64,000 bases of DNA. Origin: Candidatus Spongiisociaceae bacterium (GTDB taxonomy: Bacteria > Actinomycetota > Acidimicrobiia > Spongiisociales > Spongiisociaceae). The stretch is taken from contig OZ241841.1 in NCBI GenBank assembly GCA_965202665.1, positions 1,216,001 through 1,280,000 of the forward strand. Direction: 5' to 3'. The stretch's first letter is position 1. Every line of letters starts with the position of its first letter. The translations under genes and the position numbers were made by a program. The notes under the pieces were generated by a model. That model was not told the origin of the DNA. It searched no databases and saw only the letters and a list, made by a program, of their open reading frames with translations. Of the stretch, positions 1 to 16,767 are shown one piece after another.

Positions 1-3000
1 CCCGTCACCATCAACCCCATCGCCGCTGGGGAACGACCCGGCACGCCTGCTGGGTTCCCACCCCGCAGAGATCGCTGATGACCCCGGTTGCGAGAGTCCC
101 GAAGACCGCCTTGTTGGAAGGACAGGTGACGAGAATTCCCCAACCCCCCCCCCCGTTACCTCCGGCGCGTCACCGCCCTCGTCGGTTGCGCCGGGCCCCT
201 CGCGCACAGATCCGGCAACAGATCCGCCGCCAGCACCCCGAACACCGACATCCCCGACGGACTCGGAATCAGAATCGCCGTCTCGCGAAAACCCTTGCCC
301 CCCCCCCCTAACGGAATTTAGGTCCGGCATTGCGTCGGACGCAAACGCAGTGTCAGATGTCCCCCTACCTGAACTGTTGGAAAAAGATATCGCCTCATCA
401 ACTCTCTCCGCAGGAAACATCTTAGATATAGTTCGAACCGATGAAAGAATCAAGTCATCCTCATACAACCACAACTTTGTGAAAGGCCGATACAACACCT
501 CCCGAATACGCCTCTCGTCAAACACAAGTCTCCTACCTTTCTTCAAAGTAGCCTTCAAAGCACCAGTCCATTTTATGGCACTCAGCGGAGAATCAAGCGT
601 AGACTCTTCAGCAAAGGTTTCACCATAAATTTCCACACGAGCCAACACATCATTGTATTCTTCAATAAGACGTTGAACCTTTATCTCCAATCGTTCTCTG
701 CTAAAAGAATATACGTAAGTATCAAGATTAGTGGCCAAACCCAACGCGTGAGAATGAACAGCGGCATTTCGATGTTTCTTAACACCGCATATTGGTAAAA
801 GCTCCTCAAAGGTGCCATCAGACAGATTCACCCAATCATGCTTTGGGGTTACGGGTACTTCTTCTAAATCAGGATTAGTTATATCTTCCATTTCTTCTAG
901 CCACTGCCATTTTTCCTCTCTGCTATAGTAATCTGGCACCTGAGCATAAAATAGTGAGGCGGGCACTCCTATTCTTTTAGTCGGATTTCTAACTAAAAAG
1001 GATATTTGAACACCGCTACGAGAGCCGCCTTTTCCACTTATTGCATCAAATAACACATCACCTTCCTTAGCTCGCTCTTCTCCTGATTTATAAGCATTAC
1101 CCCGTAAGTTAACAACATAGATAGATGTAAAATCGTCCCTTACTGCAGCCCTGGCTCCAGCCAAAGAAGGGCCGTCTGTCAAAGAATTAGGGTGCACCAA
1201 GCCAATAATAGAAGGGTGGTCTCCATGCAAAATTCTATCAGAGCACCAACGCAAAGCTTTGATATATAAATTTTGTCCAGCCTTGCCAATACCACGGCAG
1301 GTAATCTCCTTATGTTTAGCTCCGTACGTGTCAGAAACTCGATCACTGATAACAGGATATTCTAGCTTGGTAGTGTCGTCACCTGCTTGCTTAGCACCAG
1401 CCGACCAGGGGGGGTTAGCTAAAATTACAGTCATCGGAGTACTATCCTGTTCATATCGACCTTGGATATTTTCTCTGAAAGTATCAAGTTCCTCCTGCTT
1501 CGGGCTACTGAGGAAAGTATCAGTTAGTACTATTTTTGTATAAGGCTGATATATCACTTCTTTCTCAAGTCTTTCGGAGTCTCGGGAATGCTTTGCTTCC
1601 TCGATTTTGATAGCTGCTATATAGTAGGCCAATAGAATAAACTCGTTAGCATGTAGTTCATTTTCATACTTGCGGTCCAAATCTTCATAACTGATTAGAT
1701 AGTTATCATCCTCGTCCTTCATTTCAATTAGACGCGCTAGGTAAGTACCAGTACCAGCGAAAGGGTCTAAAATGTGTAGATTTTCGCTCCCAATGGACCT
1801 CCCGAACTCTTTCTGGCAAATGGCGGCTGCCGAACGGATCATGAAGTCCACTATCTGTACCGGTGTATACACAATCCCCACCCGTTTTACCGTTTCTTTC
1901 ATCGCTGACTGGAAGAATCCATCGTAGATTGCCCGTAGGATATCCACCTTTTCCGCGCTGGTTACCGCTCCGGCAAAAGCGGCCTCCATCTGCCGATAAG
2001 CGCGGGTCAGGGGTCGTAATTCCTCCTCAAATGACACCTTCAACGCCTGGAAGGTTTCAAGAAATCTTTCTATCTCTTGACTGACTGGATTCTGTTTGGC
2101 GAAGCCGCTACCAGCCAACATAACATCAAACACCGGGATGGTCACCACATGCTGGGCGATCATCTCCTGCGCTTGAGCGGAGGCGACATGATCACCAATA
2201 GAATCACGAATGCCCGCCAAAAACCTTTGAAAGGCATCCTTAGCAGGACCACCCTCAGCAATCAGGTTATTTATACGGGTCTGCACCTGACGGCAAATGT
2301 CCGCCGCCCGCTCACCCCAGCGGGGATACATATGCTTGTCGCCGACGATTTCCACCACCTTGGAGGCGATTTCTTGGTTGAGTTGGAACTGCAACTGTTG
2401 TTGCACCCTCTTGCCATTTCCTTCATCAACTCCCGGTCCAACCGGGAAGGAGCACACTCGCAACGGAGCGTTCTTCGCCCAGGCGGAGGCGTTGCTGACG
2501 TAATACTCCATCCGGGAATCATGGGAGCGCAAAGCCCGCACTACCTCCCACACAGTATGAAAGTCGGAAGCTTCCAACTTCTTCTTCGGGTCGGCGTCCT
2601 CCGGAACCACCACCGGAATGATGATGTAACCCTTGCGTTTGCCGGGGGCGGTGCGCATCGCCCGGCCCACCGCCTGAGTGATATCCACCGTGGAAGTACG
2701 ACTGTTCAGAAATATAACCGCGTCCAAGCTAGGAACATCCACTCCTTCGGTGAGCACCCTCGCGTTACTGAGAATCCGGCACACCGGCCTCCCATCCCCC
2801 TCCGCTCTCACATCCCTCAGTTGCTCTAAAAGGTCGGTGCGTTCCGCGGCCGGAGTGGAACCGTCAATATGATTTACATCCAACCTCAGGAATTCTGAAA
2901 AATCCTTCCCCCCCCCCCCATCTCCAACCATGTTGCCCTTTTGCCGGGTCAGGGCATCCACCACTTTCGGCCACACCATGGCCGCCGTCTGTGAAGTGCG

Positions 3001-4506
3001 CACCAAGTTGGTGAAAGCGATAGCCGAACGGGCTGGCTCTCCGCCGTCGGCAAAAATCTGGCCGGGAAACCGACCCGGTAAAACCTCGGTGGTGGCGGGC
3101 GTTGCCAGGGCATCCCAGCATCCGGCCAGCTTCACCGCATCATCCAAAGCTAGATTAGTAGTTTCATGCACCAAAACCTCATGGGACCACCCAGCGTTGG
3201 CTAGGGACTGCATATAGGCCTCTTCCGTAGCGGTTATTACCAGCACCTCGTAGTCGGACAGGTAGCCGTCTTCAACCGCCTCACTGAACTCCATCTCGTA
3301 AAACCGCTCCCCAAAAGTCGCCGTGTCGTCCATGCTGTAGGAATCCCCTTCGAAACCGGGGGCCTCTATCTTCTTCCTCTGCCTAGCCGTAAAAACACGC
3401 GGAGTGGCCGTCATATATAAACGTTTGCCGCCCCGGATGTGGGCGTCTTCGTGCACTATGCGGAACGGGGACACCCCCAAACCTTCTTTGGATTCTTCTA
3501 TGCCGGTGGTGCGGTGGGCTTCATCGCAGATGATCAAATCAAACCCCCACCCCTCCGCGGCCCGGTTTTGCGCTTCGGCAATTCTGGGGGAGGACTGATA
3601 CGTGGAAAACACCACCTGCATCGCATCCCCCGGCACCGGCTTCGCCAACTCTTTAGCCAACCGCGCCGGGTCGGTGGTTACCGGAATAGCCAACTCCGTT
3701 AAATCACCGGCCGTGTCCGCCTGCGCCGAGCCTTTCCGCCCCGCCGTGGTGTCAGAGCACACCCCCAGATAACGCAACGGCATCTCCCGTTGCCGTGACC
3801 ACTCCCGCATCGTCTGCCCAATCAACGCAATCGACGGCACCAAATACAACACCCGGCCACCCAAACCGGCCACCTTCTCCGCCGCCCGTAACGCCACCAA
3901 CGACTTACCCGTCCCACACGGCAAAATCAACTGCCCCCGATCCACATCCCGAAACTTCTCCGCAATATCCCGCACCGCGTCCTGCTGAAAACCATGCAAC
4001 CGATGCTTAGGAGCCGGTGCGATCTCCAGCAGGTCGGGGGTTTCCGCGAACTCCCGCCAGTCATCCACCCACCGGTCCATCTCACTGGTATGCAACACCT
4101 CGCACCGCGGCTCCGCCTTACGCAACTTCGCCAACCCCACCTGGGAAACCCTGGCCGTCGCCACCAACAGGCGAGAAGCGAAATCAGCCGTCCCCGACGC
4201 CCCCAGGAAACTGTCCACCCCGGCGGTGGAAACCTCCGTAGCCCAAAACTTGCACTGGATAGCGCACAACCCGCCCCCGTAAGCCGGAGTTTGCCGGGCC
4301 ACAATATCAACCCCAATGTCCCGCCCGTACCCCCGTTCTTCCCGCTCCGGCCACTCACCCCACAACCACACCTCCTCAAAACGCTCCCGACCATACTCAC
4401 CCGGATGAGCCCGCAACGCCCCCGCCACCAACCGCTCAAACCGCCGCCCCGCCCTCCACGGATCATCCCCCCCAAAACCCCCCAACACCCCATCCAAAAA
4501 CGGCAT
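1..4506 (-). CDS. Type ISP-like R-M enzyme, large subunit, locus 1 (Mrr-type nuclease, SF2 helicase, N6-adenine MTase, TRD); runs off the window edge
   Basis: ATG at 4506 overlaps the upstream TAA (TAATG) and reads MPFLDGVLGG...GRRFERLVAGALRAHPGEYG, nearly identical to locus 2. Frame checked at 4506, 2925 and 420 (all 0 mod 3). NPPW near 1405-1416. It is absent from the ORF track, consistent with no stop before base 1: G11 at 298-308 puts it in the bypass frame (RGGGQGFSRDGDSDSES...). Confidence 0.88.
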   Translation of the reverse strand, partial: MPFLDGVLGGFGGDDPWRAGRRFERLVAGALRAHPGEYGRERFEEVWLWGEWPEREERGYGRDIGVDIVARQTPAYGGGLCAIQCKFWATEVSTAGVDSFLGASGTADFASRLLVATARVSQVGLAKLRKAEPRCEVLHTSEMDRWVDDWREFAETPDLLEIAPAPKHRLHGFQQDAVRDIAEKFRDVDRGQLILPCGTGKSLVALRAAEKVAGLGGRVLYLVPSIALIGQTMREWSRQREMPLRYLGVCSDTTAGRKGSAQADTAGDLTELAIPVTTDPARLAKELAKPVPGDAMQVVFSTYQSSPRIAEAQNRAAEGWGFDLIICDEAHRTTGIEESKEGLGVSPFRIVHEDAHIRGGKRLYMTATPRVFTARQRKKIEAPGFEGDSYSMDDTATFGERFYEMEFSEAVEDGYLSDYEVLVITATEEAYMQSLANAGWSHEVLVHETTNLALDDAVKLAGCWDALATPATTEVLPGRFPGQIFADGGEPARSAIAFTNLVRTSQTAAMVWPKVVDALTRQKGNMVGDGGGGKDFSEFLRLDVNHIDGSTPAAERTDLLEQLRDVRAEGDGRPVCRILSNARVLTEGVDVPSLDAVIFLNSRTSTVDITQAVGRAMRTAPGKRKGYIIIPVVVPEDADPKKKLEASDFHTVWEVVRALRSHDSRMEYYVSNASAWAKNAPLRVCSFPVGPGVDEGNGKRVQQQLQFQLNQEIASKVVEIVGDKHMYPRWGERAADICRQVQTRINNLIAEGGPAKDAFQRFLAGIRDSIGDHVASAQAQEMIAQHVVTIPVFDVMLAGSGFAKQNPVSQEIERFLETFQALKVSFEEELRPLTRAYRQMEAAFAGAVTSAEKVDILRAIYDGFFQSAMKETVKRVGIVYTPVQIVDFMIRSAAAICQKEFGRSIGSENLHILDPFAGTGTYLARLIEMKDEDDNYLISYEDLDRKYENELHANEFILLAYYIAAIKIEEAKHSRDSERLEKEVIYQPYTKIVLTDTFLSSPKQEELDTFRENIQGRYEQDSTPMTVILANPPWSAGAKQAGDDTTKLEYPVISDRVSDTYGAKHKEITCRGIGKAGQNLYIKALRWCSDRILHGDHPSIIGLVHPNSLTDGPSLAGARAAVRDDFTSIYVVNLRGNAYKSGEERAKEGDVLFDAISGKGGSRSGVQISFLVRNPTKRIGVPASLFYAQVPDYYSREEKWQWLEEMEDITNPDLEEVPVTPKHDWVNLSDGTFEELLPICGVKKHRNAAVHSHALGLATNLDTYVYSFSRERLEIKVQRLIEEYNDVLARVEIYGETFAEESTLDSPLSAIKWTGALKATLKKGRRLVFDERRIREVLYRPFTKLWLYEDDLILSSVRTISKMFPAERVDEAISFSNSSGRGTSDTAFASDAMPDLNSVRGGGQGFSRDGDSDSESVGDVGVRGAGGGSVAGSVREGPGATDEGGDAPEVTGGGVGEFSSPVLPTRRSSGLSQPGSSAISAGWEPSRRAGSFPSGDGVDGDG

Positions 4507-5207
4507 TACCGCTGATCTTCCAACGAGGGGGGCAGGCCGGCGATTATCTCCGCCGAACGGACGCTCACATAAACCAACCGCCGCAAATGGCGAATCAACT
4601 CATACGGATCCTTCTCCCACCGCCACCACCCATTCGGATCATCAGTGATGCCAGACGGCTTATCATGCTTATGCCGCAGACTGTCGATCGCCCAATCCAA
4701 CGGCGACCGGCCCGACACCGTATACTCCTGAGCCCGCTCCGGGATGCCGACCAACCGGCACCGCTCGTTGATATGCAACTCGGTGAGGTCTTTCTTCCAT
4801 TCACCGTCCTCGTCCTTGACTTTGTTCCACCGCATCTGTTTCTGAATCCGGTAGGCCTTCTGGTCAGCCCCCTGGTCGGGGAAACCGTCCACCAAAACAT
4901 CCACTCCCTCATACTCAGGACAGTTTTCGTATCCGATGTGCAAATCCATCAGTTCCCGCCCCGCCACCCGGAAGGCCTCAAAATCAGCGGCCAAAGGCAC
5001 ACGGGGCAGATTGCGTTGCAAATCGTTGCGGTAGCGTTTCCGCCAATCGGGGGCGTGCATCACCCCGTACAGATACTCCCAAATGTCGTCCTTGGTAATG
5101 GAAGGGTCCTCATAGCGGGTTTGGAACTCGCTCAGACACCAGTCGGTGATGTTGTCGGTGTCCTCCGTCATACCCTCCAAATCCAAGTCCAAACCCTGAT
5201 CCATCAT
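4506..5207 (-). CDS. Stand-alone Type ISP C-terminal domain protein (small subunit), copy B2
   Basis: DNITDWCL..F...Y....ITKDDIWEYLYGVMHAPDWRKRYRNDLQRNLPRVP...GRELMDLHIGYE...GIPERAQEYTVSGRSPLDW matches the C-terminus of LlaGI/LlaBIII-type enzymes. Likely start ATG 5207 after a purine-rich RBS. Confidence 0.85.
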   Translation of the reverse strand: MMDQGLDLDLEGMTEDTDNITDWCLSEFQTRYEDPSITKDDIWEYLYGVMHAPDWRKRYRNDLQRNLPRVPLAADFEAFRVAGRELMDLHIGYENCPEYEGVDVLVDGFPDQGADQKAYRIQKQMRWNKVKDEDGEWKKDLTELHINERCRLVGIPERAQEYTVSGRSPLDWAIDSLRHKHDKPSGITDDPNGWWRWEKDPYELIRHLRRLVYVSVRSAEIIAGLPPSLEDQR

Positions 5208-5569: not shown

Positions 5570-5938
5570 TCGCAGGCAAGAGGGGAGGACGCGGACAACG
5601 GAGTCGCGGGCATATAACCCGATTCTCGTTTCCGGCAATTTCTGTCACAAGCAAGGCAGGACAGGACGGCGGGGGGCGCAGGCATACCATCCAAATTCCC
5701 ATTCCTGATATTTCCTACCACAAACGGAAGGGAACACGAACAGCAGGGTCCGCAGGCATATCGTCCGGTTCTCGTTTCTGGTTTTTCCCCTCACAAGCGA
5801 GGGAGGACACGAACGGCGGGGGGCGCAGGCATACCATCCAAATTCCCATTCCTGATATTTCCTGTCACAAGCGAGGAAGGGCGCGGGCGGCGGGGGCGCG
5901 GGCATATCATCCGATTCTCGTTTCCGATATTTCCTACC
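5570..5938. repeat. Diverged ~73-bp tandem repeat, 5 units (alternating A/B units)
   Basis: GGCATA core recurs at ~5609, 5681, 5755, 5828 and 5901. Units 2 and 4 share ACGGCGGGGGGCGCAGGCATACCATCCAAATTCCCATTCCTGATATTTCCT; units 1, 3 and 5 share GGCATAT..CCG(A/G)TTCTCGTTTC. Confidence 0.8.
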
Positions 5939-6700
5939 AAGAGCGGGGGAGGGCGCGGGTGGCGGGGTCAATTACGTGCAGGTCGGGCAAGGCGTCAGTG
6001 GCTAAAACGGCCGGGCGGGAACGGTTGGAGGGAGCCACGATCAGAATCGCCTCCATCGAGGCGCAACACGGGTGGGGCGGCCCGCCGCATGCAAATCGGA
6101 GAGAATCCGGGTCGCCATCACCGCGAACGGCAACTGCGGATCCTTCATCATCAACAACGCCGGGGGAGCCCCCGCGTCTGGCGGCCGGTGGCGCACAAAT
6201 CGAACAGAACCCCCACCGCGAGCGGCGCGAACGGTAGCTGCTGGGTCTGATTGACCAAGATGAATTCCCTTCCCCCCCCCCCCGCTTCTACCTGCGACGC
6301 GGTATCACCCGCGTCTGCTGACCTGCCGCCATCGTATGCAAATCCGGAAGCCGCCCCGTCGCCAACACCCCCGCCCTCGCCATATTCGACGGACCCGTCA
6401 ACATCAACCCCGTCGTCGGGGAACGACCCGGCACGCCTGCTGGGTTCCCACCCCGCAGAGATCGCTGATGACCCCGGTTGCGAGAGTCCCGAAGACCGCC
6501 TTGTTGGAAGGACAGGTGACGAGAATTCCCCAACCCCCCCCCCCGTTACCTCCGGCGCGTCACCGCCCTCGTCGGTTGCGCCGGGCCCCTGGCGCACAGA
6601 TCCGGCAACAGATCCACTGCCAGCACCCCGAACACCGACATCCCCGACGGACTCGGAATCAGAATCGCCACCTCGTGAAAACCCTTGCCCCCCCCCCCCC
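5934..6700 (-). other. Frameshift-selectable cassette array of locus 2: cassettes C1-C6 plus three poly-G switches
   Basis: Tracts G13 6688-6700, G11 6534-6544, G12 6272-6283. Cassettes C1 6546-6671, C2 6404-6532, C3 6288-6410, C4 6151-6270, C5 6041-6160, C6 5934-6056, each approximating hhh-x(9-10)-LA-x3-h-[PS]DL[HC]-x(4-7)-TR-h-x-PR-stop. Confidence 0.9.
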
Positions 6701-9700
6701 TTGATTGAGGTCTGGCACCACCCCAGCGGCGGACAGATTATCAGACGCACCCCTCATAGAACCACTCGCCACATCAATCCCCTCAACCTCCGCCTCACGG
6801 GGGAACATCGCGGACACCGTTTTCACCGACGAAAGAATCAGGTCATCCTCATACAACCACAACTTCGTATAAGGCCTATACAACACCTGCCTAATACGAC
6901 CCTCATCAAACACAATACGCCTGCCCTTCCGCAAAGACCCCTTCAACGTATCCGTCCATTTAATCGCATCCAACCTAGTATTTGCAGTAACTTCCCCAAT
7001 GTCCTCCCCATGTATCTCTACTAAATCCAATGTCCTGTCATAAATATCGATCAGCCGCTTAACCTTTTGAATAAGCATTTCACGGCTGAACGAATAAACA
7101 TATGTGTCACAAGTAGTTGTTACACCACGAGCATGCTTAGCGACAGCTACTTGCCCATTTTCCTTTTGAATATCACAAACCGCAAGCAGATTATCAAATG
7201 TTCCATCCGACAGATTTACCCAATCGTGGCGGGGATTTACCGGAACTTCCTCTAGCTGTGAGCTCGTCACATCCCAAATTTTTTCCAACCATTCCCACTT
7301 ATCATCCAAACTCATATAATCAGGAACTTGCGCATAATGAAGGTTGGCAGGCTGGCTGATGTCTTTAGATGGATTTCTTACCAGAAAAGTAATTTGAACA
7401 CCGTTGCGTGTTCCTTCGCCAAAAACGGTGTCTCCTTCTCGTTGCCTTTCATCACCCTGTTTAAAGGCGTTGCCTCGCAGATTAATCACATAGATGTCAG
7501 TGAACTCATCCCGTAACGTTCCCCGAACACCGGCCAACGAAGTGCCGTCGGCCAAAGAGTTAGGATGGACAAGCCCGACAATAGCGGGGTGGTCGCCGCG
7601 TTGCGTATTCGGTAAAATCCGATCCGTGCACCAACGCAAGGCCTTCACATACAGATTACCCATAGCGTTGCCTCCGGGCGACTGTCCTACCACTTCTTTA
7701 TGTTTGGCTCCGTAGGTTTTCTCCACCCGTAGGCCAACATCGTGATATTCAAGATTAGGGTTGTCATCGCCCGCCAACTTCTGACCGGATGACCAAGGCG
7801 GATTGGATATTATCACAGTCATCGGAGTAGCATCCTGTTCAAGACGAACTCGTATATTGTCGCCTAAAACATCAAACCCTTCCTGCTCAGGACTAGCCAA
7901 CAACGTATCAGTAAACACTATTTTTTTGAAAGGGTCGTATTTGACTTTACTATCAGACTTTTCTCCATCCCGAAAATGCTTAGATTCTTCTATTTTGAGA
8001 GCGGCGATGTAGTAGGGTAACAGGATAAACTCGTTGACATGCAGTTCTTGTTGATATTTGCGGTCCAGATCTTCAGTGCTTATAAGGTAGTTGCCATCTT
8101 CATCTTTCATCTCTATCAGACGAGAAATGAAAGTCCCGGTGCCAGCGAAAGCATCTAAGATATGTATATTTTCACTACCTATGGATCTCCTGAACTCTTT
8201 TTGACAGATAGCAGCCGCTGAGCGTATCATAAAGTCCACTATCTGCACCGGAGTGTATACTATCCCAACCCGCTTCACCGTTTTTTTCATAGCCGCCTGG
8301 AAAAACCCCTCATAGATTTCTCGCAGAATATCCACCTTTTCGACACTAGATACCGCCCCGGCGAATGCGGCCTCCATTTGTCTGTAGGCGCGGGTTAGAG
8401 GTCTTAGCTCCTCCTCGAACGATACATTCAACTTACGGAATTTTTTGAGTAGCCTTTCTATTTCTTTGCTTACTGGATTCTGCTCGGAGAAACCGCTTTC
8501 AGCCAGCATTACATTGAACACCGGGATGGTGACCACATGCTGAGCGATCATCTCCTGAGCTTGCTCTAAAGTAACGTGATTCCCAACCGACTGACGGATG
8601 CCTTTCAAGAAACGTTGGAAGGCATTCTCGGCAGGGCCGCCTTCGGCTATCAGGTGGTTGATACGGGTTTGCACCTGGCGGCAGATGTCAGCCGCGTGCA
8701 CTCCCCAGCGGGGATACATTTGCTTGTCGCCGATGATTTCCACCACTTTGGATGCAATTTCTTGGCTGAGTTGGAACTGCAACTGATGTTGCACCCGCTC
8801 GTCGTAACCTTCTTCTTCAACATCCCGGCCCAACCGGCAAGTGACCACCCGTAGCGGAGCGTTTTTCTTCCAGGCGGAGGCGTTGCTGACGTAATGTTCC
8901 ATCCGGGAGTCGTGGGAACGCAAAGCCCGCACCACCTCCCACACAGTCTGAAAGTCGGAGGCTTCCAGCATCTTCTGCGGGTCGGCGTCCTCCGGGACTA
9001 CTACAGGAATAATGATGTAGCCTTTGCGTTTGCCGGGGGCGGTGCGCATCGCCCGGCCCACCGCTTGGGTTATATCCACCGTGGAAGTGCGGCTGTTCAG
9101 AAAAAGCACCGCATCCAAGCTGGGAACATCCACCCCTTCGGTTAGCACCCGGGCGTTGCTGAGAATCCGGCACACCGGCCTCCCGGATTCACCCCCGCCC
9201 CCTGCCCTCCCCCTCAGTTGCTCTAGCAGATCAGTCCGTTCCGCGGCCGGAGTGGAACCGTCAATATGATTTACATCCAACCGCAAAAATCTATTTTCGC
9301 CACCCCCCCCCCCGTTCCCTACCAAGTCTCCCCTTTGCCGAGTCAGGGCGCCTACCACTTTCGGCCACACCATGGCAGCCGTCTGCGAGGTGCGCACCCG
9401 GTTGGTGAAAGCGATGGCCGAACGGGCAGGCTCGCCGCCCTCGGGGAAAATCTGGCCGGGAAACCGACCCGGCAAAACCCCGGTGGTGGCGGGAGTGGCC
9501 AGGGCATCCCAGCATCCAGCCAGTTTCACCGTATCGTCCAAAGCCAAATTGGTGTCCTCGCGCACTATCATCTCGTGAGCGAAATCGGCGTTGGCCAAAG
9601 ACTGCAAATAAGCCTCGGCGGAGGCGGTGATAACCAGCACCTCGTAGTCGGACAGATAACCGCCTTCCACCGCCTCGCTGAACTCCATTTCATAAAACCG

Positions 9701-10906
9701 TTCCCCGAAAGTCGCCGCGTCGTCCATGCTGTAGGAGTCCCCTTCGAAACCGGGGGCCTCTATCTTCTTCCTCTGCCGAGCGGTGAACACACGAGGGGTG
9801 GCCGTCATATACAAACGCTTGCTACCCCGGATGTGGGCGTCTTCGTGCACTATGCGGAACGGGGACACCCCCAGCCCTTCTTTGGATTCTTCGATGCCGG
9901 TGGTGCGGTGCGCCTCATCGCAGATAATCAAATCAAACCCCCACCCCTCCGCGGCCCGCTGTTGCGCCTCGGCAATTTTGGGGGAGGACTGATACGTGGA
10001 AAACACCACCTGCATCGAATCCCCCGACACCGGCTTAGACAACTCTTTAGCCAGCCGCGCCGGGTCGGTGGTTACCGGAATAGCCAACTCAGTTAAATCA
10101 CCGGCTATGTCCGCCTGCGCCGAGCCCTTCCGCCCCGCCGTGGTATCCGAGCACACCCCCAGATAACGTAGCGGCATTTCCCGTTGCCGGGACCATTCCC
10201 TCATCGTCTGCCCAATCAACGCAATCGACGGCACCAAATACAACACCCGGCCACCCAACCCCGCCACCTTCTCCGCCGCCCGCAACGCCACCAACGACTT
10301 ACCCGTCCCACACGGCAAAATCAACTGCCCCCGATCCACATCCCGAAACTTCTTCGCAATATCCCGCACCGCGTCCTTCTGAAACCCATACAACCGATGC
10401 TTAGGAGCCGGTGCGATCTCCAGCAGGTCGGGGGTTTCCGCGAACTCCCGCCAGTCATCCACCCACCGGTCCATCTCACTGGTATGCAACACCTCGCACC
10501 GCGGCTCCGCCTTACGCAACTTCGCCAACCCTGTCCGGGAAACCCGCGCCGTCGCCACTAACAGGCGCGATGCAAAATCAACCGTGCCCGACGCGCCCAA
10601 GAAACTGTCCACACCGGCGGTGGAAACCTCCTTTTCCCGGAACTTGCATTGAATGGCGCACAACCCGCCCCCGTAAGCCGGGGTCTGGCGGGCCACAATA
10701 TCAACCCCGATATCCCGCCCGTATCCCCGTTCTTCCCGTTCCGGCCACTCACTCCACAACCACACCTCCTCAAACCGCTCCCGCCCGTACTCACCCGGAT
10801 GAGCGCGCAACGCACCCGCCACCAACCGCTCAAACCGCCTCCCCTGAACCACCGACTTCGGATCATCCGCCACCAAACCTCGCAACACCTCCTGCAAATA
10901 CGGCAT
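6659..10906 (-). CDS. Type ISP-like R-M enzyme, large subunit, locus 2
   Basis: 1415 aa. Mrr motif DIGVDIVA...AIQCK, Walker A LPCGTGKS, DEAH, TATP, QAVGRAMR, MTase motif I DAFAGTG and motif IV NPPW, TRD region YRPYTK. Ends at PDLNQGGGGARVFTRWRF without the usual last ~230 aa. Confidence 0.93.
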   Translation of the reverse strand: MPYLQEVLRGLVADDPKSVVQGRRFERLVAGALRAHPGEYGRERFEEVWLWSEWPEREERGYGRDIGVDIVARQTPAYGGGLCAIQCKFREKEVSTAGVDSFLGASGTVDFASRLLVATARVSRTGLAKLRKAEPRCEVLHTSEMDRWVDDWREFAETPDLLEIAPAPKHRLYGFQKDAVRDIAKKFRDVDRGQLILPCGTGKSLVALRAAEKVAGLGGRVLYLVPSIALIGQTMREWSRQREMPLRYLGVCSDTTAGRKGSAQADIAGDLTELAIPVTTDPARLAKELSKPVSGDSMQVVFSTYQSSPKIAEAQQRAAEGWGFDLIICDEAHRTTGIEESKEGLGVSPFRIVHEDAHIRGSKRLYMTATPRVFTARQRKKIEAPGFEGDSYSMDDAATFGERFYEMEFSEAVEGGYLSDYEVLVITASAEAYLQSLANADFAHEMIVREDTNLALDDTVKLAGCWDALATPATTGVLPGRFPGQIFPEGGEPARSAIAFTNRVRTSQTAAMVWPKVVGALTRQRGDLVGNGGGGGENRFLRLDVNHIDGSTPAAERTDLLEQLRGRAGGGGESGRPVCRILSNARVLTEGVDVPSLDAVLFLNSRTSTVDITQAVGRAMRTAPGKRKGYIIIPVVVPEDADPQKMLEASDFQTVWEVVRALRSHDSRMEHYVSNASAWKKNAPLRVVTCRLGRDVEEEGYDERVQHQLQFQLSQEIASKVVEIIGDKQMYPRWGVHAADICRQVQTRINHLIAEGGPAENAFQRFLKGIRQSVGNHVTLEQAQEMIAQHVVTIPVFNVMLAESGFSEQNPVSKEIERLLKKFRKLNVSFEEELRPLTRAYRQMEAAFAGAVSSVEKVDILREIYEGFFQAAMKKTVKRVGIVYTPVQIVDFMIRSAAAICQKEFRRSIGSENIHILDAFAGTGTFISRLIEMKDEDGNYLISTEDLDRKYQQELHVNEFILLPYYIAALKIEESKHFRDGEKSDSKVKYDPFKKIVFTDTLLASPEQEGFDVLGDNIRVRLEQDATPMTVIISNPPWSSGQKLAGDDNPNLEYHDVGLRVEKTYGAKHKEVVGQSPGGNAMGNLYVKALRWCTDRILPNTQRGDHPAIVGLVHPNSLADGTSLAGVRGTLRDEFTDIYVINLRGNAFKQGDERQREGDTVFGEGTRNGVQITFLVRNPSKDISQPANLHYAQVPDYMSLDDKWEWLEKIWDVTSSQLEEVPVNPRHDWVNLSDGTFDNLLAVCDIQKENGQVAVAKHARGVTTTCDTYVYSFSREMLIQKVKRLIDIYDRTLDLVEIHGEDIGEVTANTRLDAIKWTDTLKGSLRKGRRIVFDEGRIRQVLYRPYTKLWLYEDDLILSSVKTVSAMFPREAEVEGIDVASGSMRGASDNLSAAGVVPDLNQGGGGARVFTRWRF

Positions 10907-11595
10907 TACCGCTGGCCTTCCAACGAGGGGGGCAGGCCGGCGATTATCTCCGCCGAACGGACGCTCACATAAACCAACCGCCGCAAATGGCGAATCAACT
11001 CATACGGATCCTTCTCCCACCGCCACCACCCATTCGGATCATCAGTGATGCCAGACGGCTTATCATGCTTATGCCGTAGGCTGTCGATGGCCCAATCCAA
11101 CGGCGACCGGCCCGACACCGTATACTCCTGAGCCCGCTCCGGGATGCCAACCAACCGGCACCGGTCGTTGATATGCAACACGGTGCGGTCAACCTTCCCC
11201 TTGCCGTCCTCGCCTTTGGCCCGCTCCCACCGCATCTTCTTCTTAATCCGGTAGTCCTCCGGGTCGGGGGAACCGTCCACCACAACTTCCACCCCTTCAT
11301 ATTCGGGACAGGTCTCGTATCCGATGTGCAAATCCATCAGTTCCCGCCCCGCCGCCCGGAAGGCCTCAAAGTCGGCGGCCAAAGGCACCCGGGGCAAATT
11401 GCGTTGCAAATCGTTGCGGTAGCGTTTCCGCCAGTCGGGGGCGTGCATCACCCCGTACAGATACTCCCAAATGTCATCTTTGGTAATGGAAGGGTCCTCA
11501 TAGCGGGTTTGGAACTCGTTCAGACACCAGTCAGTGATGTTGTCGGTGTCCTCCGTCATACCCTCCAAGCCCAAACCCTGGTCCTGGCCCATCAT
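10906..11595 (-). CDS. Stand-alone Type ISP C-terminal domain protein (small subunit), copy B3
   Basis: 229 aa, close paralog of B2. AGGAGG RBS upstream. Its stop overlaps the locus 2 ATG (TAATG). Confidence 0.88.
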   Translation of the reverse strand: MMGQDQGLGLEGMTEDTDNITDWCLNEFQTRYEDPSITKDDIWEYLYGVMHAPDWRKRYRNDLQRNLPRVPLAADFEAFRAAGRELMDLHIGYETCPEYEGVEVVVDGSPDPEDYRIKKKMRWERAKGEDGKGKVDRTVLHINDRCRLVGIPERAQEYTVSGRSPLDWAIDSLRHKHDKPSGITDDPNGWWRWEKDPYELIRHLRRLVYVSVRSAEIIAGLPPSLEGQR

Positions 11596-11781
11596 TCCGG
11601 CAAACCCTCCCTCCTCCTACGCCCCCCGCCCGGGGGAACGCCCTATCCTACCCCGGCGTTTCCGCACCCGCCAAATTTTTTTCAAACCTGCTCGAGCCCA
11701 CCCTCCCACCCCCCGCCCACCCACCCGAAAATATAAAGCACTTTTTCGGTTTCAACAAGGGGGTCGTTTCCGGAGGATGGC

Positions 11782-11889: not shown

Positions 11890-12506
11890 TCAAAAACGGG
11901 GAAGGGCGCGGGTGGCAGGGTCTATCACGTGCAGGTCGGGCAAAGTGTCTGTTGCTAAAACGGCCGGGCGAGCCCGGTTGGAAGGAGCCACAATCAGAAT
12001 CGCCTCCACCGAGGCAGAACCCGGGTGGGGCGGCCCGACGCGAGCACCGCGAACGGCAACCGCTGGGGCTGATTGGCCAAGACCGATCCCACCCGCTACC
12101 TCCAGCGCAGTATCACCCGCGTCTGCTGACCGGCCGCCATCGTATGCAAATCCGGAAGCCACCCCGTCGCCAACACCCCCGCCCTCGCCATATTCGACGG
12201 ACCCGTAAACATCAGCCCCGTCGCCGGGGAACGACCCGGCAGGCCTGCTGAGTTCCCACCGCGCAGAGATCGCTGATGACCTGGGCTGCGAGAGTCCCGA
12301 AGACTGCCTTGTTCGACGGACAGGTGATGAGAATTCTTGGCTCCCCCCCCCCCCGCTACCTCTAGCGCGGTATCACCCTCGTCTGTTGCGAACCCTTGAT
12401 CGCCGCCAGGTCCGTCAGCCATGCCGCCGCCAGGGCCTGGAAAATCATATTGTTGCCGTTGCTGATCAGAATCACCTTCGCGTGACGACCCTTGCCCCCC
12501 CCCCCC
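11890..12506 (-). other. Frameshift-selectable cassette array of locus 3: C1', C2, C3, C6 plus two poly-G switches
   Basis: G12 at 12495-12506 and G12 at 12343-12354. Cassette stops at 12362, 12212, 12096 and 11890. ORF-track ORFs 12096..12533 and 11890..12162 are bypass-frame-plus-cassette reads. Confidence 0.88.
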
Positions 12507-15500
12507 TAACTGAGTTAAGATCTGGTTGCACATCGTGCGCGATGGGGGTATCGACTGTACCTCGACCGGATCCGCTGGTGAAAGAAACCGCTTCAGTGAT
12601 TTCGCTATGGGGGAACAGTCGGGATGCGCTTCTCACCGATGATAAAATACGGTCATCCTCGTACAACCATAGTTTAGTAAACGGCCGATACAGTACTTGG
12701 CGGATACGAGCAGGGTCAAATACTATTTTTCTGCCTCTTCGCAGTGAATCTTGGATACGGGCAATGCTCCGTAGATATAGTGAATCCTCCACCAACTTCT
12801 CAATCCATTGTTTAGTTGGATGAGTATGGTTTCTTACTTGCAGAAGATACGCATCGTATTCGTCTAATAAATCTCTTATTTTATCTTCCAGGGCTTGCCG
12901 ATTGTATGAGTAGGCCATGAAATCACAGGCGGTAGCTATTCCCAGCGCACTCTTTTGAGAAACTGCTGGTTCTTGATTTGCACCTACAGTGCATATAGGC
13001 ACCATTTTTTCATATGTTCCATCAGACAGGTTTACCCAATCATGTTTTGAGGTCACCGGTACTTCTTTCAATTGATCACTGGTTATATCGCCTAGAAACT
13101 CTAGCCAGTCCCACTTTTGATTTAGTTTTAGGTAATCCGGCACTTGAGCGTAACGGAGAATGGCAGGCCCTTTCAAGTCCTTGCGAGGATTTCGAACCAA
13201 AAATGTTATCTGTGTCCCAAGCATGGCACCAGCTCCGAACACTTTGTCTCCTTCTTTTTGCCATTCTTCACCCGCTTTTTTGGCATTACCTCGTAGGTTA
13301 ACTACATAGATATCAGTAAATTCATCACGAAGAGATGCTCTCATTCCAGCTAAACTGGTCGCATCAGTTAAAGAATTGGGGTGAACAAAACCAATCATTT
13401 TCCCTCGGTTAGCAGGTTCTTTATCTAGTTGATCGGTTGCCCATCTTATAGCCTGTACAAATAAGTTTCCAGCGGCATTTCCACCAAGTCTTAGACCAAG
13501 AGCTTTATGAGATTTATTATAAGTTTCCCTAACTCGCTCTGCTACTTTAGGGAACTGTAATTTGCCAACTTGTCCAGTTCTATTGGCCCCAGAACCCCAA
13601 GGTGGGTTACTAAAAATAATATCCACAGGAGTCTGATCCAAACGGGCCGCTCTTCCAACATTACCCTCAGCATCATCTAATTCGCGTTGTTGACCCCGTC
13701 CACCCCCCAAATTGCCGGAAAGGAAAGTATTCTGCAAAACCAGCCCCTCCCAGGGTTGGTAGTCAGGATCCTGTTCATCACGCCGGTTAATTCTCTTTCG
13801 GTAAGTTTCCTCCACTTGGAGGGCGGAAACATAGTATGCGAGCATAACGATTTCTGATCCATGCATATTTTTCCATACATTCTCTAGCGCGTTGTCGGGT
13901 ACAATAGGTTTTCCATCCCTGCCAAAGGCATCTAGTAAACGCGTGGGGAAGGTACCGGTTCCACAGAACGGATCATAGAACTGAACATATTGATCAGAAA
14001 TATGAACACCAAATTCTTTTTCACAGATAGCGGCAGCCGATTTAATAATAAAATCAACTATTTGAATAGGTGTGTAGACTATACCAAGTTGTTTTATCGC
14101 GTTAGGCATAGCTTCCTTAAAGAATCCATCATATATTTCCCGAAGGACATCTACCTTTTTATCGGCATCTCCAGCTGCATCAAACACCTCTTTCATGCGA
14201 TCATAAGCTCGTTGCAGAGGTGCACAATCACCTTGAAAATTTATTCCCTGCATTTCCAGCGTTTTGCGAAGAGTGTCAATACGTCGACTAATAGGATTCA
14301 CCTGTGCAAAATGCCCGTGGAACATTGCATCGAAAACGGGAATAGTTACAATATGTTGAGCGACCATTTCTTCGGTACTATCGGGATCAACCTGACCACC
14401 CATTACCTTCCCTAACTCATAAACTAACTCTTCAAATGCTTGTTGACACACCGGATCGGTAAGAGAAGATTTTAGTCGCGAGCGAACGTCGGCGCAAACC
14501 TTTGCCGCCTGCTGACCCCATCGAGGCCACATTTTCTTGTCTCCAACTTTATCTACTATTACCGATGCCAACTGCTGGGTGAGTTGAAATCGCAACTGTT
14601 CCACTTCCCGTTGGGTTCGTTTGGTTTTTTTCCCATTGCCAATAACCCTTACATTGAACTTGCCTTTTAGCTGGCATATATCGGGGTCGGACACCCAATA
14701 GTCAACGCGGTCATCGTGCGATCGTAAAGCGCGAACAACGTTGGCTACGTTGGCGAATTCGCTTTGTGCAAGTTTCCGGTTAGGATCTTCTTCTTGCTCA
14801 TCTATCACAACGGGAATAACTATGTGCCCTTTAGTTTTGTGATCAGTGGTACGCATCGCCCGCCCTACCGCTTGAGTAATGTCTACTTCCGATGTTTTAG
14901 GATCTAAGAAAATAACCGCATCTAGGCCGGGAACGTCTACCCCTTCAGTTAGAACTTTCACATTTGTCAAAATCTCACAAATGGGCGATTCCGCATCCTC
15001 ATCTGTTGTCGGTGGTGCATTAGTAACAGTTCGCAACCGGCTTATACGTTTAGTGCGTTCCGCAGCGGGAGTATTGCCATCCACATGATTGACTTTTAAC
15101 TGAAGATAACGGTTAGGTTCTTCGTCAATAGCCGATTGGCGGGAAGCCAGCTCCGCCCATACCATGGCTACTTCTCGGCTTCGGGGAATTTTGTTAGCGT
15201 AAAGCAGGGCGGTACGGGTGGGCCACCCTAATTTTATATCTGTTTTTCCGGCAGGGCGGTGAGGGTCCACCTTTTCAGAATATGGTGTGGACAGGGCATC
15301 CCAAGCACCAGCTAATCGTACTCCATCGCTTAATGACAAGGCTGGCTCTCGCTCTCCAGTTTCAGGGTTTTTCTTACCTTGAGGTTCGTAACCCGGTATG
15401 TCCGCCCATTCCATACCTATATGATCGGAATGGGCCGCCTGCCATCGAAAGCCACGACTAGCTGCTACTACATGTATCTGATAGTCAGACAGAACCGGGC

Positions 15501-16767
15501 GACCATCCGTACGTAGGTTGATCTTCTCTGAAGTTTTACTATCAATCCTTTTACCATCCACAGCCTCCGCGAAAGACAGCTTATAGAAGACCGGCCCGAA
15601 CACACCTTCATCATCCATAGAATAAGATTGCCCATCATAATGCTTATTTTCTATACGACTCTTTTGATGTTCAGTAAAAACCCGGGGGGTAGCGGTCATA
15701 AAAAGCCTTTTGCGACAAGGGATTTGATCATTGCTCAAACCAGTCTGAAATAAGCTACCTTCAGTTTTGTTAATGCCGGTAGTTCGATGCGCCTCATCAA
15801 AAAATGCTAAATCGAACATAAACCCTGGAATAGATTTGATAGATTCTGCGACCATCGGTGACGACTGATATGTACAGAATACGGCTCGCGTCGTTCTCTT
15901 CGCAATGGGCTTTTTAAGAGCGATCGTTAGATGATTGGGATCAGTAGTTACAGGAGCAAATAGTTCGGTGAGCCGACGACGGTCTTCACGACCAACAGAA
16001 CTATCGGAACACACCGCCAAAAACTCTAGCGGCAGAGTTTTGTTGGCGGACCATTCTTTCATACTTTGATCCATCAATGCTAAAGAAGGTACTAGAAATA
16101 ATACAGTTGCTCCCCCCCCCCCCCGTTCCGTCGCCCATAACGAGACTAGCGTCTTTCCGGTACCACATGGCAAAATTAGCTGTCCTCGATCAAAGTCTCT
16201 AAACCCATTATATATTTTATCGATAGCGTCCCGTTGAAATGGATGCGGAGTTTTTGGATGGCTTCGGATAACTAACTTGTTAGGCTCGTCGATAAGAGTA
16301 CGCCAGTCTTCCACCCACCCGTCCATTTCAACAGTGTGCAGAACCTTCCCATCTCGATGGCGGTGTAATGCTTCCTCCCCTTTTCGAGAAACCGGAGCGG
16401 TGGCCACCAACAAAATAGACCGGAACAGATCCGATGAAGGGCGGGAATGTGTGATAAAACGGTCCACCGCTCTGGTAGATATCTCGTTGCGATGAAACTT
16501 GCACTGAACAGCGCACAGGCCGCCACCGTACGCATCGGTTTGCTCCGCCACCAAATCTATACCATCGTCGCCAGCCGCGTACCCGTGCCTCTCCCGATCC
16601 GGCCACTCCCCCCACAACCAAACGTCCCGGAACCGATCCTTGCCCCATTCTCCCGGGTGGGCTAGAAAGGCGGCTTTAACTAATTCCTCAAAGTCACGAC
16701 CTTTTTCCACGGCGGTTGCCGTACGGTCTTCTATCATCTCCAATGCCTCAGTCAAATAACCCATCAT
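12472..16767 (-). CDS. Type ISP-like R-M enzyme, large subunit, locus 3
   Basis: DDGIDLVA...AVQCK, LPCGTGKT, DEAH, QAVGRAMR, DPFCGTG, NPPW, YRPFTK. Start moved to ATG 16767 after AAGGAGG. Ends PDLNSVRGGGARVVTRR. Confidence 0.93.
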   Translation of the reverse strand: MMGYLTEALEMIEDRTATAVEKGRDFEELVKAAFLAHPGEWGKDRFRDVWLWGEWPDRERHGYAAGDDGIDLVAEQTDAYGGGLCAVQCKFHRNEISTRAVDRFITHSRPSSDLFRSILLVATAPVSRKGEEALHRHRDGKVLHTVEMDGWVEDWRTLIDEPNKLVIRSHPKTPHPFQRDAIDKIYNGFRDFDRGQLILPCGTGKTLVSLWATERGGGGATVLFLVPSLALMDQSMKEWSANKTLPLEFLAVCSDSSVGREDRRRLTELFAPVTTDPNHLTIALKKPIAKRTTRAVFCTYQSSPMVAESIKSIPGFMFDLAFFDEAHRTTGINKTEGSLFQTGLSNDQIPCRKRLFMTATPRVFTEHQKSRIENKHYDGQSYSMDDEGVFGPVFYKLSFAEAVDGKRIDSKTSEKINLRTDGRPVLSDYQIHVVAASRGFRWQAAHSDHIGMEWADIPGYEPQGKKNPETGEREPALSLSDGVRLAGAWDALSTPYSEKVDPHRPAGKTDIKLGWPTRTALLYANKIPRSREVAMVWAELASRQSAIDEEPNRYLQLKVNHVDGNTPAAERTKRISRLRTVTNAPPTTDEDAESPICEILTNVKVLTEGVDVPGLDAVIFLDPKTSEVDITQAVGRAMRTTDHKTKGHIVIPVVIDEQEEDPNRKLAQSEFANVANVVRALRSHDDRVDYWVSDPDICQLKGKFNVRVIGNGKKTKRTQREVEQLRFQLTQQLASVIVDKVGDKKMWPRWGQQAAKVCADVRSRLKSSLTDPVCQQAFEELVYELGKVMGGQVDPDSTEEMVAQHIVTIPVFDAMFHGHFAQVNPISRRIDTLRKTLEMQGINFQGDCAPLQRAYDRMKEVFDAAGDADKKVDVLREIYDGFFKEAMPNAIKQLGIVYTPIQIVDFIIKSAAAICEKEFGVHISDQYVQFYDPFCGTGTFPTRLLDAFGRDGKPIVPDNALENVWKNMHGSEIVMLAYYVSALQVEETYRKRINRRDEQDPDYQPWEGLVLQNTFLSGNLGGGRGQQRELDDAEGNVGRAARLDQTPVDIIFSNPPWGSGANRTGQVGKLQFPKVAERVRETYNKSHKALGLRLGGNAAGNLFVQAIRWATDQLDKEPANRGKMIGFVHPNSLTDATSLAGMRASLRDEFTDIYVVNLRGNAKKAGEEWQKEGDKVFGAGAMLGTQITFLVRNPRKDLKGPAILRYAQVPDYLKLNQKWDWLEFLGDITSDQLKEVPVTSKHDWVNLSDGTYEKMVPICTVGANQEPAVSQKSALGIATACDFMAYSYNRQALEDKIRDLLDEYDAYLLQVRNHTHPTKQWIEKLVEDSLYLRSIARIQDSLRRGRKIVFDPARIRQVLYRPFTKLWLYEDDRILSSVRSASRLFPHSEITEAVSFTSGSGRGTVDTPIAHDVQPDLNSVRGGGARVVTRR

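What the first reader, a model, noticed from the sequence alone, without database searches (positions are those of the whole stretch)
5934..6790. Ternary poly-G frameshift decision tree choosing one of seven alternative specificity-region C-termini for a Type ISP R-M enzyme
Seen in sequence (minus strand, every stop codon checked by hand). The large subunit ends in cassette C0 (GIDVASGSMRGASDNLSAAGVVPDLNQGGGGARVFTRW), which contains tract T1 (G13, 6688-6700). Six homologous cassettes follow: C1 AILIPSPSGMSVFGVLAVDLLPDLCARGPAQPTRAVTRRR*, C2 GILVTCPSNKAVFGTLATGVISDLCGVGTQQACRVVPRRRG*, C3 GLMLTGPSNMARAGVLATGRLPDLHTMAAGQQTRVIPRRR*, C4 FILVNQTQQLPFAPLAVGVLFDLCATGRQTRGLPRRC*, C5 ALLMMKDPQLPFAVMATRILSDLHAAGRPTRVAPRWRRF*, C6 AILIVAPSNRSRPAVLATDALPDLHVIDPATRALPRSW*. 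Every frame leaving every tract has a meaningful outcome. At T1, G13 gives C0, G14 or G11 gives C1, and G12 opens a bypass to T2. At T2 (6534-6544), G12 gives C2, G10 gives C3, and G11 bypasses to T3. At T3 (6272-6283), G12 gives C4, G13 gives C5, and G11 gives C6. The C1 and C3 stops sit immediately before T2 and T3, so only the bypass frame reaches the next switch. Established: long poly-G tracts are slipped-strand contingency loci, and the h-h-h...PDL...PR segment lies in the target-recognition region of LlaGI/LlaBIII-type enzymes. Tract-driven ON/OFF or truncation-type specificity changes are known in other R-M types. Inference: this is a recombinase-free, triple-coded, multi-state specificity switch. 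I know of no description of such a nested system.
Basis: partly seen in the sequence, partly recalled or inferred. Interest (0 to 1): 0.98.

Follow-up and report, generated by a model that had tools for sequence, protein, structure and literature searches.

The report
Nested frameshift dial for restriction specificity
A bacterial DNA-defence enzyme gene ends in six overlapping spare copies of a small DNA-reading part, laid out in all three reading frames behind three slippery G-runs, so one-letter slips would let each cell pick one of seven endings and likely change which DNA sequence the enzyme methylates and cuts, without any recombinase.

Summary
Confirmed. All seven outcomes at the three poly-G tracts reproduce. 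The gene is a Type ISP restriction-modification enzyme split into a large subunit and a separate small subunit. Each cassette is a copy of the LlaGI 1345-1379 module: beta-hairpin plus Loop VI, which reads target position +3. The design is conserved. In 85 distinct related loci, mostly sponge Acidimicrobiia, 501 of 519 frames leaving a repeat give a module or a bypass, and 68 loci are perfect 2n+1 trees. Repeat units are 1, 2, 4, 5, 7 or 10 nt, never a multiple of three. Frames that must be read through hold no stop in 438 segments (about 184 expected); dead frames hold stops in 168 of 316. One-tract versions occur in distant Type ISP proteins (Cardiobacterium/Neisseria-like, Acinetobacter ursingii). 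A two-state precedent exists in H. pylori (PMC3936762), so the principle is known. I found no description of the nested, triple-coded, multi-state form. Not shown: switching within one population, module displacement, and the actual target motifs.

The parts
6659..10906 (-). Large subunit L (locus B), 1415 aa as assembled: Mrr nuclease, SF2 ATPase, coupler, N6-adenine MTase, N-terminal part of the TRD
   Evidence: Pfam; PDB LlaBIII E 1.5e-193, LlaGI E 4.8e-187
9303..9313 (-). T0, mid-gene G11 tract in the ATPase region; ON/OFF switch (plus or minus 1 gives 538 or 544 aa)
   Evidence: a related assembly has it out of frame (P0014)
6659..6781 (-). C0, resident module of L, interrupted by T1 inside Loop VI
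6688..6700 (-). T1, G13
6546..6668 (-). Cassette C1 with stop
6534..6544 (-). T2, G11
6404..6529 (-). Cassette C2 with stop
6288..6410 (-). Cassette C3 with stop
6272..6283 (-). T3, G12
6151..6267 (-). Cassette C4 with stop
6041..6163 (-). Cassette C5 with stop
5934..6053 (-). Cassette C6 with stop
6284..6687 (-). Stop-free bypass frame over C1 and over C2+C3 (low-complexity linker)
   Evidence: bypass frames across loci are rich in S, P, R, G, A and D
10906..11595 (-). Small subunit S (229 aa): remaining TRD core helices plus guide (LlaGI about 1394-1565); its stop overlaps the L start (TAATG)
   Evidence: Pfam Type_ISP_C positions 165-339
11728..11755 (-). Promoter-like site upstream of S of locus B (consensus match only)
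1..4506 (-). Paralogous locus A: L gene and the same 7-way tree (tracts 2908-2919, 298-308, 144-154; third tract and C3-C6 lie just left of the window); assembled in the bypass-bypass-C4 state
4506..5207 (-). Small subunit S of locus A, coupled to L of locus A
11890..16764 (-). Paralogous locus C: L gene (tracts 16112-16124, 12495-12506, 12343-12354) with a 5-way tree; no S gene of its own upstream

Best explanation
The locus is a split Type ISP restriction-modification enzyme whose large subunit ends in a replaceable 38-40 residue TRD module, and replication slippage in three nested poly-G tracts likely selects, heritably and reversibly, which of seven modules is translated as the C-terminus, which is predicted to change the one or two target bases next to the methylated adenine. 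Shown from sequence: each tract has three usable exits (two modules plus one bypass, or three modules at the last tract), so n tracts give 2n+1 states; the rest of the TRD is a separate gene (S), so the module can be C-terminal; a mid-gene tract adds ON/OFF. Inferred: the terminal module, tethered by a 10-210 residue disordered linker, plugs into the TRD beta-sheet in place of C0, which has lost its last strand; S completes the core; Loop VI then reads position +3 and perhaps +2 (that is -2/-1 from the m6A); methylation and restriction change together. Likely role: bet-hedging against phage and foreign DNA in clonal symbiont populations, with possible epigenetic side effects.
For: Seven outcomes reproduce. 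The module aligns with LlaGI chain 1183-1215, i.e. residues 1347-1379 (the profile's only PDB hit, weak, E 0.098). That stretch holds the hairpin 1347-1358 and Loop VI, whose H1368/G1372/Q1373 (N1360 in LlaBIII) read +3 (PMC4872093). The residue at the H1368 position differs by cassette type: H, C, A, N, K or S. In 85 loci: 68 perfect trees; 85 of 88 inner tracts have exactly one bypass; 76 of 85 last tracts have three productive frames; all 173 repeat units are non-triplet. Stops: 0 of 438 needed segments against 168 of 316 dead ones, with about 184 expected. Out-of-frame cassettes diverge mostly at third codon positions of their own frame. About 10 cassette types are conserved across genera, and only 3 of 85 loci repeat a type. 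29 of 85 assemblies sit in a bypass state, including locus A. 72 of 85 loci have the first repeat before any module, so a tethered terminal module must be the normal active form. L is broken in 12 of 24 loci with a mid-gene repeat against 4 of 46 without. No MutS or MutL match and NucS present in this 94% complete genome; mycobacterial NucS does not repair 1-2 bp indels (PMC11551767). A displacing C-terminal TRD duplicate changes the -1/-2 bases in H. pylori (PMC3936762).
Against: No methylome, proteome or RNA data. Tract-length mixtures within one sample were not shown: only assembled contigs were available and the two best-matching runs listed no tract indels. Loop VI is known to read one position (+3), so seven modules need +2 or degenerate readout, which is inferred from H. 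pylori only. The loci are related, so the P values overstate. Within-type contrasts are uneven: clear for T7, T9, T4 and T1, but several types occur in only one kind of position. The AlphaFold model was low-confidence (pTM 0.39) and its alignment favoured C4, so displacement of C0 is not shown. 17 of 85 loci are imperfect trees.
Confidence: 0.8

Rival explanations
1. Slippage happens during transcription or translation, so each cell makes a mixture of isoforms (several specificities at once) instead of one heritable state.
For: Long homopolymers can slip in RNA polymerase (general knowledge, recalled). No within-sample DNA variation was seen. It could add to the DNA-level switch.
Against: The same role is filled by 2-, 4-, 5-, 7- and 10-nt units up to 148 nt long, typical of replication slippage. 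Repeat copy number differs between near-identical proteins (P0136/P0287, P0134/P0284, P0137/P0292). Different assemblies are fixed in different branches.
Confidence: 0.08
2. The cassettes are silent donors that are copied or deleted into the expression site by recombination, and the repeats are secondary.
For: Cassette order is shuffled between genera. A junction motif recurs at 64 of 241 non-first cassette starts. Locus C has lost C4 and C5 by an in-frame deletion.
Against: Silent donors need no open alternative frames, yet stops are absent only where frames are read through. DNA identity between the six cassettes of locus B is low, with longest exact matches of 6-24 nt. No cassette was found on the opposite strand. 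The junction motif is also explained by the overlapping stop. Recombination probably explains evolution of the arrays, not the switching.
Confidence: 0.06
3. The cassettes are translated as free peptides by stop-start coupling and plug into the L+S complex in trans.
For: Several cassettes overlap the previous stop, and 130 of 412 have an in-frame ATG near their start.
Against: 282 of 412 lack such an ATG. Free peptides would not need open bypass frames or repeats placed exactly at block starts.
Confidence: 0.04
4. The array is a decaying set of tandem duplications, and the tracts only switch the enzyme off.
For: 17 of 85 loci have a dead or doubled branch. Homopolymer lengths in an assembly can be wrong.
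Against: Zero stops in 10,908 read-through codons, a coding-type substitution pattern, conserved cassette types across genera, and counts of 3, 5 or 7 modules that match 1, 2 or 3 tracts.
Confidence: 0.02

Closest known systems
H. pylori Type IIG Hpy99XIV (JHP1272) / HpyAXVI (HP1353-1354) frameshift specificity switch (PMC3936762; sections 22, 25, 33 and passages read)
   Same: One tract for ON/OFF and another that adds a C-terminal duplicate of part of the TRD. The authors propose that it displaces the resident part, and they measured a change at the -1/-2 bases (GGWTAA to GGWCNA; CRTTAA to CRTCNA). By the Type ISP numbering these are +2/+3, the position Loop VI reads (my inference).
   Different: Two specificity states, one added domain of about 94 aa, no ATPase, single polypeptide. 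Here: a Type ISP enzyme with a split-off S subunit, all three frames used at every tract, overlapping triple-coded cassettes, bypass frames and nesting to 5-7 states or more. Sequence homology of the CTRD to these cassettes was not tested.
[quoted passage not shown]
   Same: Same domain order and clear sequence homology over L and S; the cassette equals hairpin 1347-1358 plus Loop VI.
   Different: Single polypeptides with one fixed module; no repeats or alternative modules described in the text read.
Truncation or fusion switches: NgoAV hsdS (seen only as cited in PMC5953494) and HpyUM032XIII S1/S2 (PMC4450513, passages)
   Same: A poly-G length change alters recognition specificity.
   Different: Binary; a whole TRD is added or lost; no alternative modules in other frames.
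Invertible hsdS loci and shufflons such as pneumococcal SpnIII (recalled, not from a call)
   Same: A multi-state (about six) specificity switch of a restriction-modification system.
   Different: Those need a recombinase and inverted repeats and rearrange DNA; here all cassettes lie on one strand and only repeat length changes.

Membership tests
Type ISP R-M enzyme | Mrr nuclease, SF2 ATPase, coupler, gamma-class N6A MTase and TRD in that order | tested here: met
   nuclease, Walker A, DEAH, MTase motif I and NPPW motifs present in the translation
Type ISP R-M enzyme | All functions in a single polypeptide | tested here: not met
   The TRD is split: L covers Type_ISP_C 6-152 and S covers 165-339 as a separate upstream gene. 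An unsplit 1615-aa paralogue exists elsewhere in the genome. So this is a split, Type ISP-derived enzyme.
Type ISP R-M enzyme | ATP-driven translocation-collision cleavage and one-strand m6A methylation | not testable with these tools
   needs biochemistry or a methylome
SSR phase-variable R-M systems | Non-triplet simple repeat inside the coding sequence whose length differs between strains | tested here: met
SSR phase-variable R-M systems | High-frequency reversible switching within a population | tested here: inconclusive
   only contigs were available; no tract indels listed in the two best runs; one contig of another run is one base shorter at T1 but is a diverged allele
H. pylori CTRD-type frameshift specificity switch | A frameshift adds a C-terminal duplicate of a base-reading TRD element, alongside a separate ON/OFF tract | tested here: met
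H. pylori CTRD-type frameshift specificity switch | Type IIG architecture without an ATPase | tested here: not met
   SF2 ATPase present
H. pylori CTRD-type frameshift specificity switch | Measured change of the methylated motif at -1/-2 | not testable with these tools
   needs SMRT or nanopore methylomes of locked isoforms
Shufflon / invertible hsdS | Cassettes in inverted orientation | tested here: not met
   no cassette hit of 5 bits or more on the reverse strand of the 2.5 kb downstream of 122 anchored loci
Shufflon / invertible hsdS | Adjacent site-specific recombinase | not tested
   neighbouring ORFs were listed but not scanned for recombinase families

The most novel reading that the evidence does not exclude
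This is a general genetic device not described before: a recombinase-free frameshift multiplexer in which nested simple repeats and triple-coded DNA pick one of 2n+1 interchangeable protein modules, delivered on a disordered tether into a scaffold that was split into two genes to allow it. It is widespread in Type ISP enzymes, from a three-state form in culturable Proteobacteria to 5-7 or more states in sponge symbionts, and it provides a natural library of plug-in modules that set the bases next to the methylated adenine. With three loci and ON/OFF tracts, this one genome could reach 8 x 8 x 6 = 384 combined states.
Probability: 0.7. Interest if true: 0.93.

Novelty: new variant of a known kind. 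Interest (0 to 1): 0.87.

Why it matters
It extends phase variation from ON/OFF or two-state switches to a multi-state decision tree written in overlapping frames. It is a natural case of triple-coded bacterial DNA kept open by selection, and gene callers cannot see it. About ten conserved module types give a ready natural test of the Type ISP recognition code at +2/+3, which PMC4872093 left open for +2, and a route to re-programming these enzymes by swapping about 40 residues. It suggests how uncultured sponge symbionts, whose genomes are enriched in R-M genes (PMC5649159, passages), vary their defence within a host. Simple versions in culturable bacteria make it testable now.

Tried and rejected
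My first reading that the cassette carries Loop V was wrong: residue mapping puts Loop V in the constant part of L. The first stop-codon test counted the functional terminator of the preceding cassette among dead-frame stops; it was redone without that region and only the corrected figures are used. AlphaFold2 on the natural C0-bypass-C4 product of locus A gave pTM 0.39 (C0 pLDDT 40-46 and unstructured; C4 56-69 with two strands), but nearly all alignment rows backed C4 and the structure match ended before either module: inconclusive. Complex prediction of L-TRD + S + C3 returned no answer. No RNA holder was listed among sequencing runs. Contigs laid on the array could not show within-sample tract variation, and no second set of runs was examined. 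No relatives in viral contigs. Two Nitrosomonas plasmid regions were fetched but not analysed further. DNA context for the Neisseria and Acinetobacter proteins was not obtained, so their layout is read from protein sequences only, and a search with the C-terminal region of the L119 large subunit could not be made. The supplementary text of PMC4872093 (File004), which may bear on the +2/+3 code, was too large to read; File005 is an alignment. Three look-ups of earlier scan findings returned nothing.
Full report
1. Observation. The three tracts are at the stated places (G13 6688-6700, G11 6534-6544, G12 6272-6283). The C1 and C3 stops lie 1 and 4 nt before T2 and T3. T1 lies inside C0, so every isoform keeps C0 up to its Loop VI and only the C0 state keeps its last strand. 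The tracts are not background. The 2.77-Mb genome has 96 G/C runs of 8, one of 9, none of 10 and 66 of 11-13. Of 75 runs of 10 or more, 24 sit between TTGAC(A/T) and a -10-like hexamer with spacers of 15, 16 or 17 nt. Exact tract lengths in an assembly may be wrong, but the architecture does not depend on them.

2. The enzyme. The 1415-aa ORF has Mrr nuclease, SF2 helicase, ISP coupler, N6 MTase and positions 6-152 of Type_ISP_C. The 229-aa ORF at 10906-11595 has positions 165-339. Both match LlaBIII, LlaGI and DrdV. The small gene S lies upstream of L, with a promoter-like site and a TAATG stop-start overlap. The window holds three such L genes in tandem. Locus A has the same seven-way tree and is assembled in the bypass-bypass-C4 state. 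Locus C has two tracts and five outcomes, with C4 and C5 deleted in frame inside the bypass, and no S of its own. Each L has a further mid-gene G tract whose slip truncates it. A fourth paralogue elsewhere in the genome is an ordinary unsplit 1615-aa enzyme with one module.

3. What the cassette is. The end of L aligns with LlaGI chain residues up to 1215, which is residue 1379 (offset 164 from the deletion of residues 2-165 described). A profile of 86 cassettes has LlaGI 1183-1215 as its only PDB hit, a weak one (E 0.098). In PMC4872093 (parts 2-6 of 7 read) this stretch holds the beta-hairpin 1347-1358, which packs on Loop VI and the phosphate backbone, and Loop VI 1365-1374, whose H1368, G1372 and Q1373 (N1360 in LlaBIII) read position +3. 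How some enzymes read +2 was left open. Loop V is in the constant part of L: model residue 144 superposes on LlaGI 1328 (Z 10.6, rmsd 2.2, 96 aligned). The residue at the H1368 position is H, C, A, N, K or S depending on cassette type. S supplies the core helices and guide from about residue 1394, which explains how the module can be C-terminal.

4. Relatives. DNA of the array matched 11 of 41 genomes searched, this one included, all in its family. An alignment of the last 200 residues of L found 77 loci in named genomes and 32 in metagenomes. Titles are mostly Acidimicrobiia, including sponge-symbiont candidate families, with single Caldilineaceae, Dehalococcoidia, Longimicrobiales and Thermodesulfobacteriota records. 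The best hits are titled Ca. Spongiisociaceae, and several runs holding the stretch are labelled sponge or marine metagenome. Of 122 anchored loci I dropped 16 duplicates, 2 distant loci, 11 with fewer than two cassettes and 8 truncated or N-containing ones, leaving 85, three of them from this genome. I removed by hand 12-nt AACC/ACCA repeats that lie inside cassette coding sequence and merged broken poly-C runs in two loci. Results: 173 tracts with units of 1 (126), 2 (35), 4 (8), 5 (2), 7 (1) and 10 (1) nt, none a multiple of three although such units were searched for; 501 of 519 exit frames lead to a module, a C0-type tail or the next tract; 85 of 88 inner tracts have exactly one bypass; 76 of 85 last tracts have three productive frames; 68 of 85 loci are perfect trees, with 3, 5 and 7 outcomes for 1, 2 and 3 tracts in 19, 32 and 18 loci (69 by count, one more than the perfect trees); 17 are imperfect. 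In 72 of 85 loci the first repeat precedes every module. On a quick tree of L (careful search unfinished) the first repeat's class changes at least 31 times, so the repeat sequence turns over while its position is kept.

5. Selection on the hidden frames. For each cassette I classed its two other frames as needed (crossed on the way to a later cassette or tract) or dead, by position alone. With the terminator region excluded, 0 of 143 needed +1 segments and 0 of 295 needed +2 segments contain a stop (10,908 codons), against 145 of 234 and 23 of 82 dead ones. Synonymous resampling expects 66 and 118 needed segments with stops. Within types that occur in both kinds of position the contrast holds (T7 +1: 0 of 3 against 15 of 16; T4 +1: 0 of 41 against 5 of 11; T1 +2: 0 of 18 against 18 of 52), but some types occupy one kind of position only, and the loci are kin, so the P values overstate. 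Orthologous C4, C5 and C6 differ mostly at third positions of their own frame (34-38% against 4-12% at second positions). About ten types recur across genera (median best identity to another locus 86%, within a locus 37%), and only 3 of 85 loci repeat a type. Bypass frames are rich in S, P, R, G, A and D.

6. Do the repeats change? Between genomes, yes. 29 of 85 assemblies read through at least two tracts, and 78 of 85 end in a full cassette. L is broken in 12 of 24 loci with a mid-gene repeat against 4 of 46 without. A close relative of locus B has T0 out of frame (P0013/P0014). No MutS or MutL match and one NucS match were found in this 94% complete genome, and mycobacterial NucS does not repair 1-2 bp indels (PMC11551767, passages). 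Within one population it is not shown: only assembled contigs could be laid, the two best runs list no tract indels, and the one-base-shorter T1 in another run lies on a diverged allele.

7. Wider distribution. L119, a distant metagenomic hit (26%) whose S clusters with a Cardiobacterium hominis protein, has a one-tract version: resident module, (CGAA)13, then module 1, or module 2 with a TAATG overlap to S, or a third frame that runs in frame into S. All three states appear as natural proteins of this type: L119, P0142 and the 1793-aa P0314 in a cluster that includes Neisseria lactamica S proteins. A module-profile search of 1.84 billion representatives gave 833 hits; 17 of the 150 listed have two modules, several separated by translated repeats, including an Acinetobacter ursingii cluster whose members differ in repeat number. 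Free S-sized proteins with their own start occur in several named Neisseria. DNA context for these was not seen. Whether the sponge and proteobacterial forms share one origin was not tested; L119 falls outside the sponge clade on a long branch.

8. Mechanism. Shown: tree logic, split gene, module identity, selection on read-through frames, length change between genomes. Inferred: replication slippage as the switch, insertion of the tethered terminal module in place of C0, and change of target at +3 and perhaps +2. Support from outside: in H. pylori a frameshift-added duplicate changes the -1/-2 bases and is proposed to displace the resident part (PMC3936762). By the Type ISP convention those are +2/+3, and the switched site CRTCNA equals the first six bases of LlaGI's methylated strand (reverse complement of CTNGAYG; my derivation). 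That paper also reports incomplete exclusion of the old specificity for one enzyme, so C0 may still compete here. Structure prediction was inconclusive. Rivals are transcription slippage (0.08), recombination donors (0.06), free peptides (0.04) and decay (0.02).

9. Novelty. Ten full-text searches found the H. pylori two-state switch and truncation or fusion switches (PMC4450513 passages; NgoAV only as cited in PMC5953494), and no nested, multi-frame or Type ISP case. A 2026 review showed no passage on it (PMC13076061). The library lacks most subscription papers, and the supplementary text of PMC4872093 could not be read. Invertible hsdS systems are recalled, not retrieved. I rate it a new variant of a known kind with an unusually far-reaching design; interest 0.87.

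Noticed in passing
G000 genome-wide, e.g. C1:7152, 486753-514321, 1013927-1028658, 1460534-1587591 (outside the window): 24 poly-G tracts (G11-13) sit between TTGAC(A/T) and a -10-like hexamer, giving spacers of 15, 16 or 17 nt, mostly upstream of paralogous proteins with signal-peptide-like N-termini: likely promoter-spacer phase variation of surface-protein families in a symbiont.
   Followed up: partly
window 9303-9313, 2908-2919, 16112-16124: Mid-gene ON/OFF tracts lie in the ATPase region. A gene caller predicted an 873-aa downstream product holding the MTase and TRD in an out-of-frame relative (P0013), so the OFF state might still methylate if translation restarts; H. pylori HP0669 alone is an active MTase. 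Untested.
   Followed up: partly
window 5605-5934: Degenerate tandem repeat (4.5 copies, consensus period 73, 70% matches) starting right at the C6 stop; role unknown.
   Followed up: no
window 11890-16764: Locus C has no S gene of its own and would have to borrow one of the two S proteins (87-88% identical) in trans.
   Followed up: partly
G000:C1:1191756-1196589 (L132): Unsplit 1615-aa Type ISP paralogue with a single module and a mid-gene G13 tract.
   Followed up: partly
L119:7578-8100: Three-state version in a Cardiobacterium-like contig in which one frame re-fuses L and S into a single polypeptide, a plausible ancestral form.
   Followed up: yes
L021-L118: The S gene lies downstream, upstream or divergently transcribed relative to L in different loci, so it is mobile relative to its partner.
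   Followed up: partly
proteins P0139, P0189, P0230, P0237, P0258, P0259, P0271: A separate, lysine-rich lineage of two-module Type ISP-like proteins, some with translated dinucleotide or 7-mer repeats between the modules; host unnamed.
   Followed up: no
L035, L075, L081, L097: Arrays in records titled Caldilineaceae, Thermodesulfobacteriota, Longimicrobiales and Dehalococcoidia fall among the Acidimicrobiia sequences on a quick tree, suggesting transfer between co-symbionts (or binning error); not tested.
   Followed up: no
window 31299-32342: 347-aa ORF that resembles ArdC-type anti-restriction / ssDNA-binding proteins by eye (recalled, not scanned).
   Followed up: no
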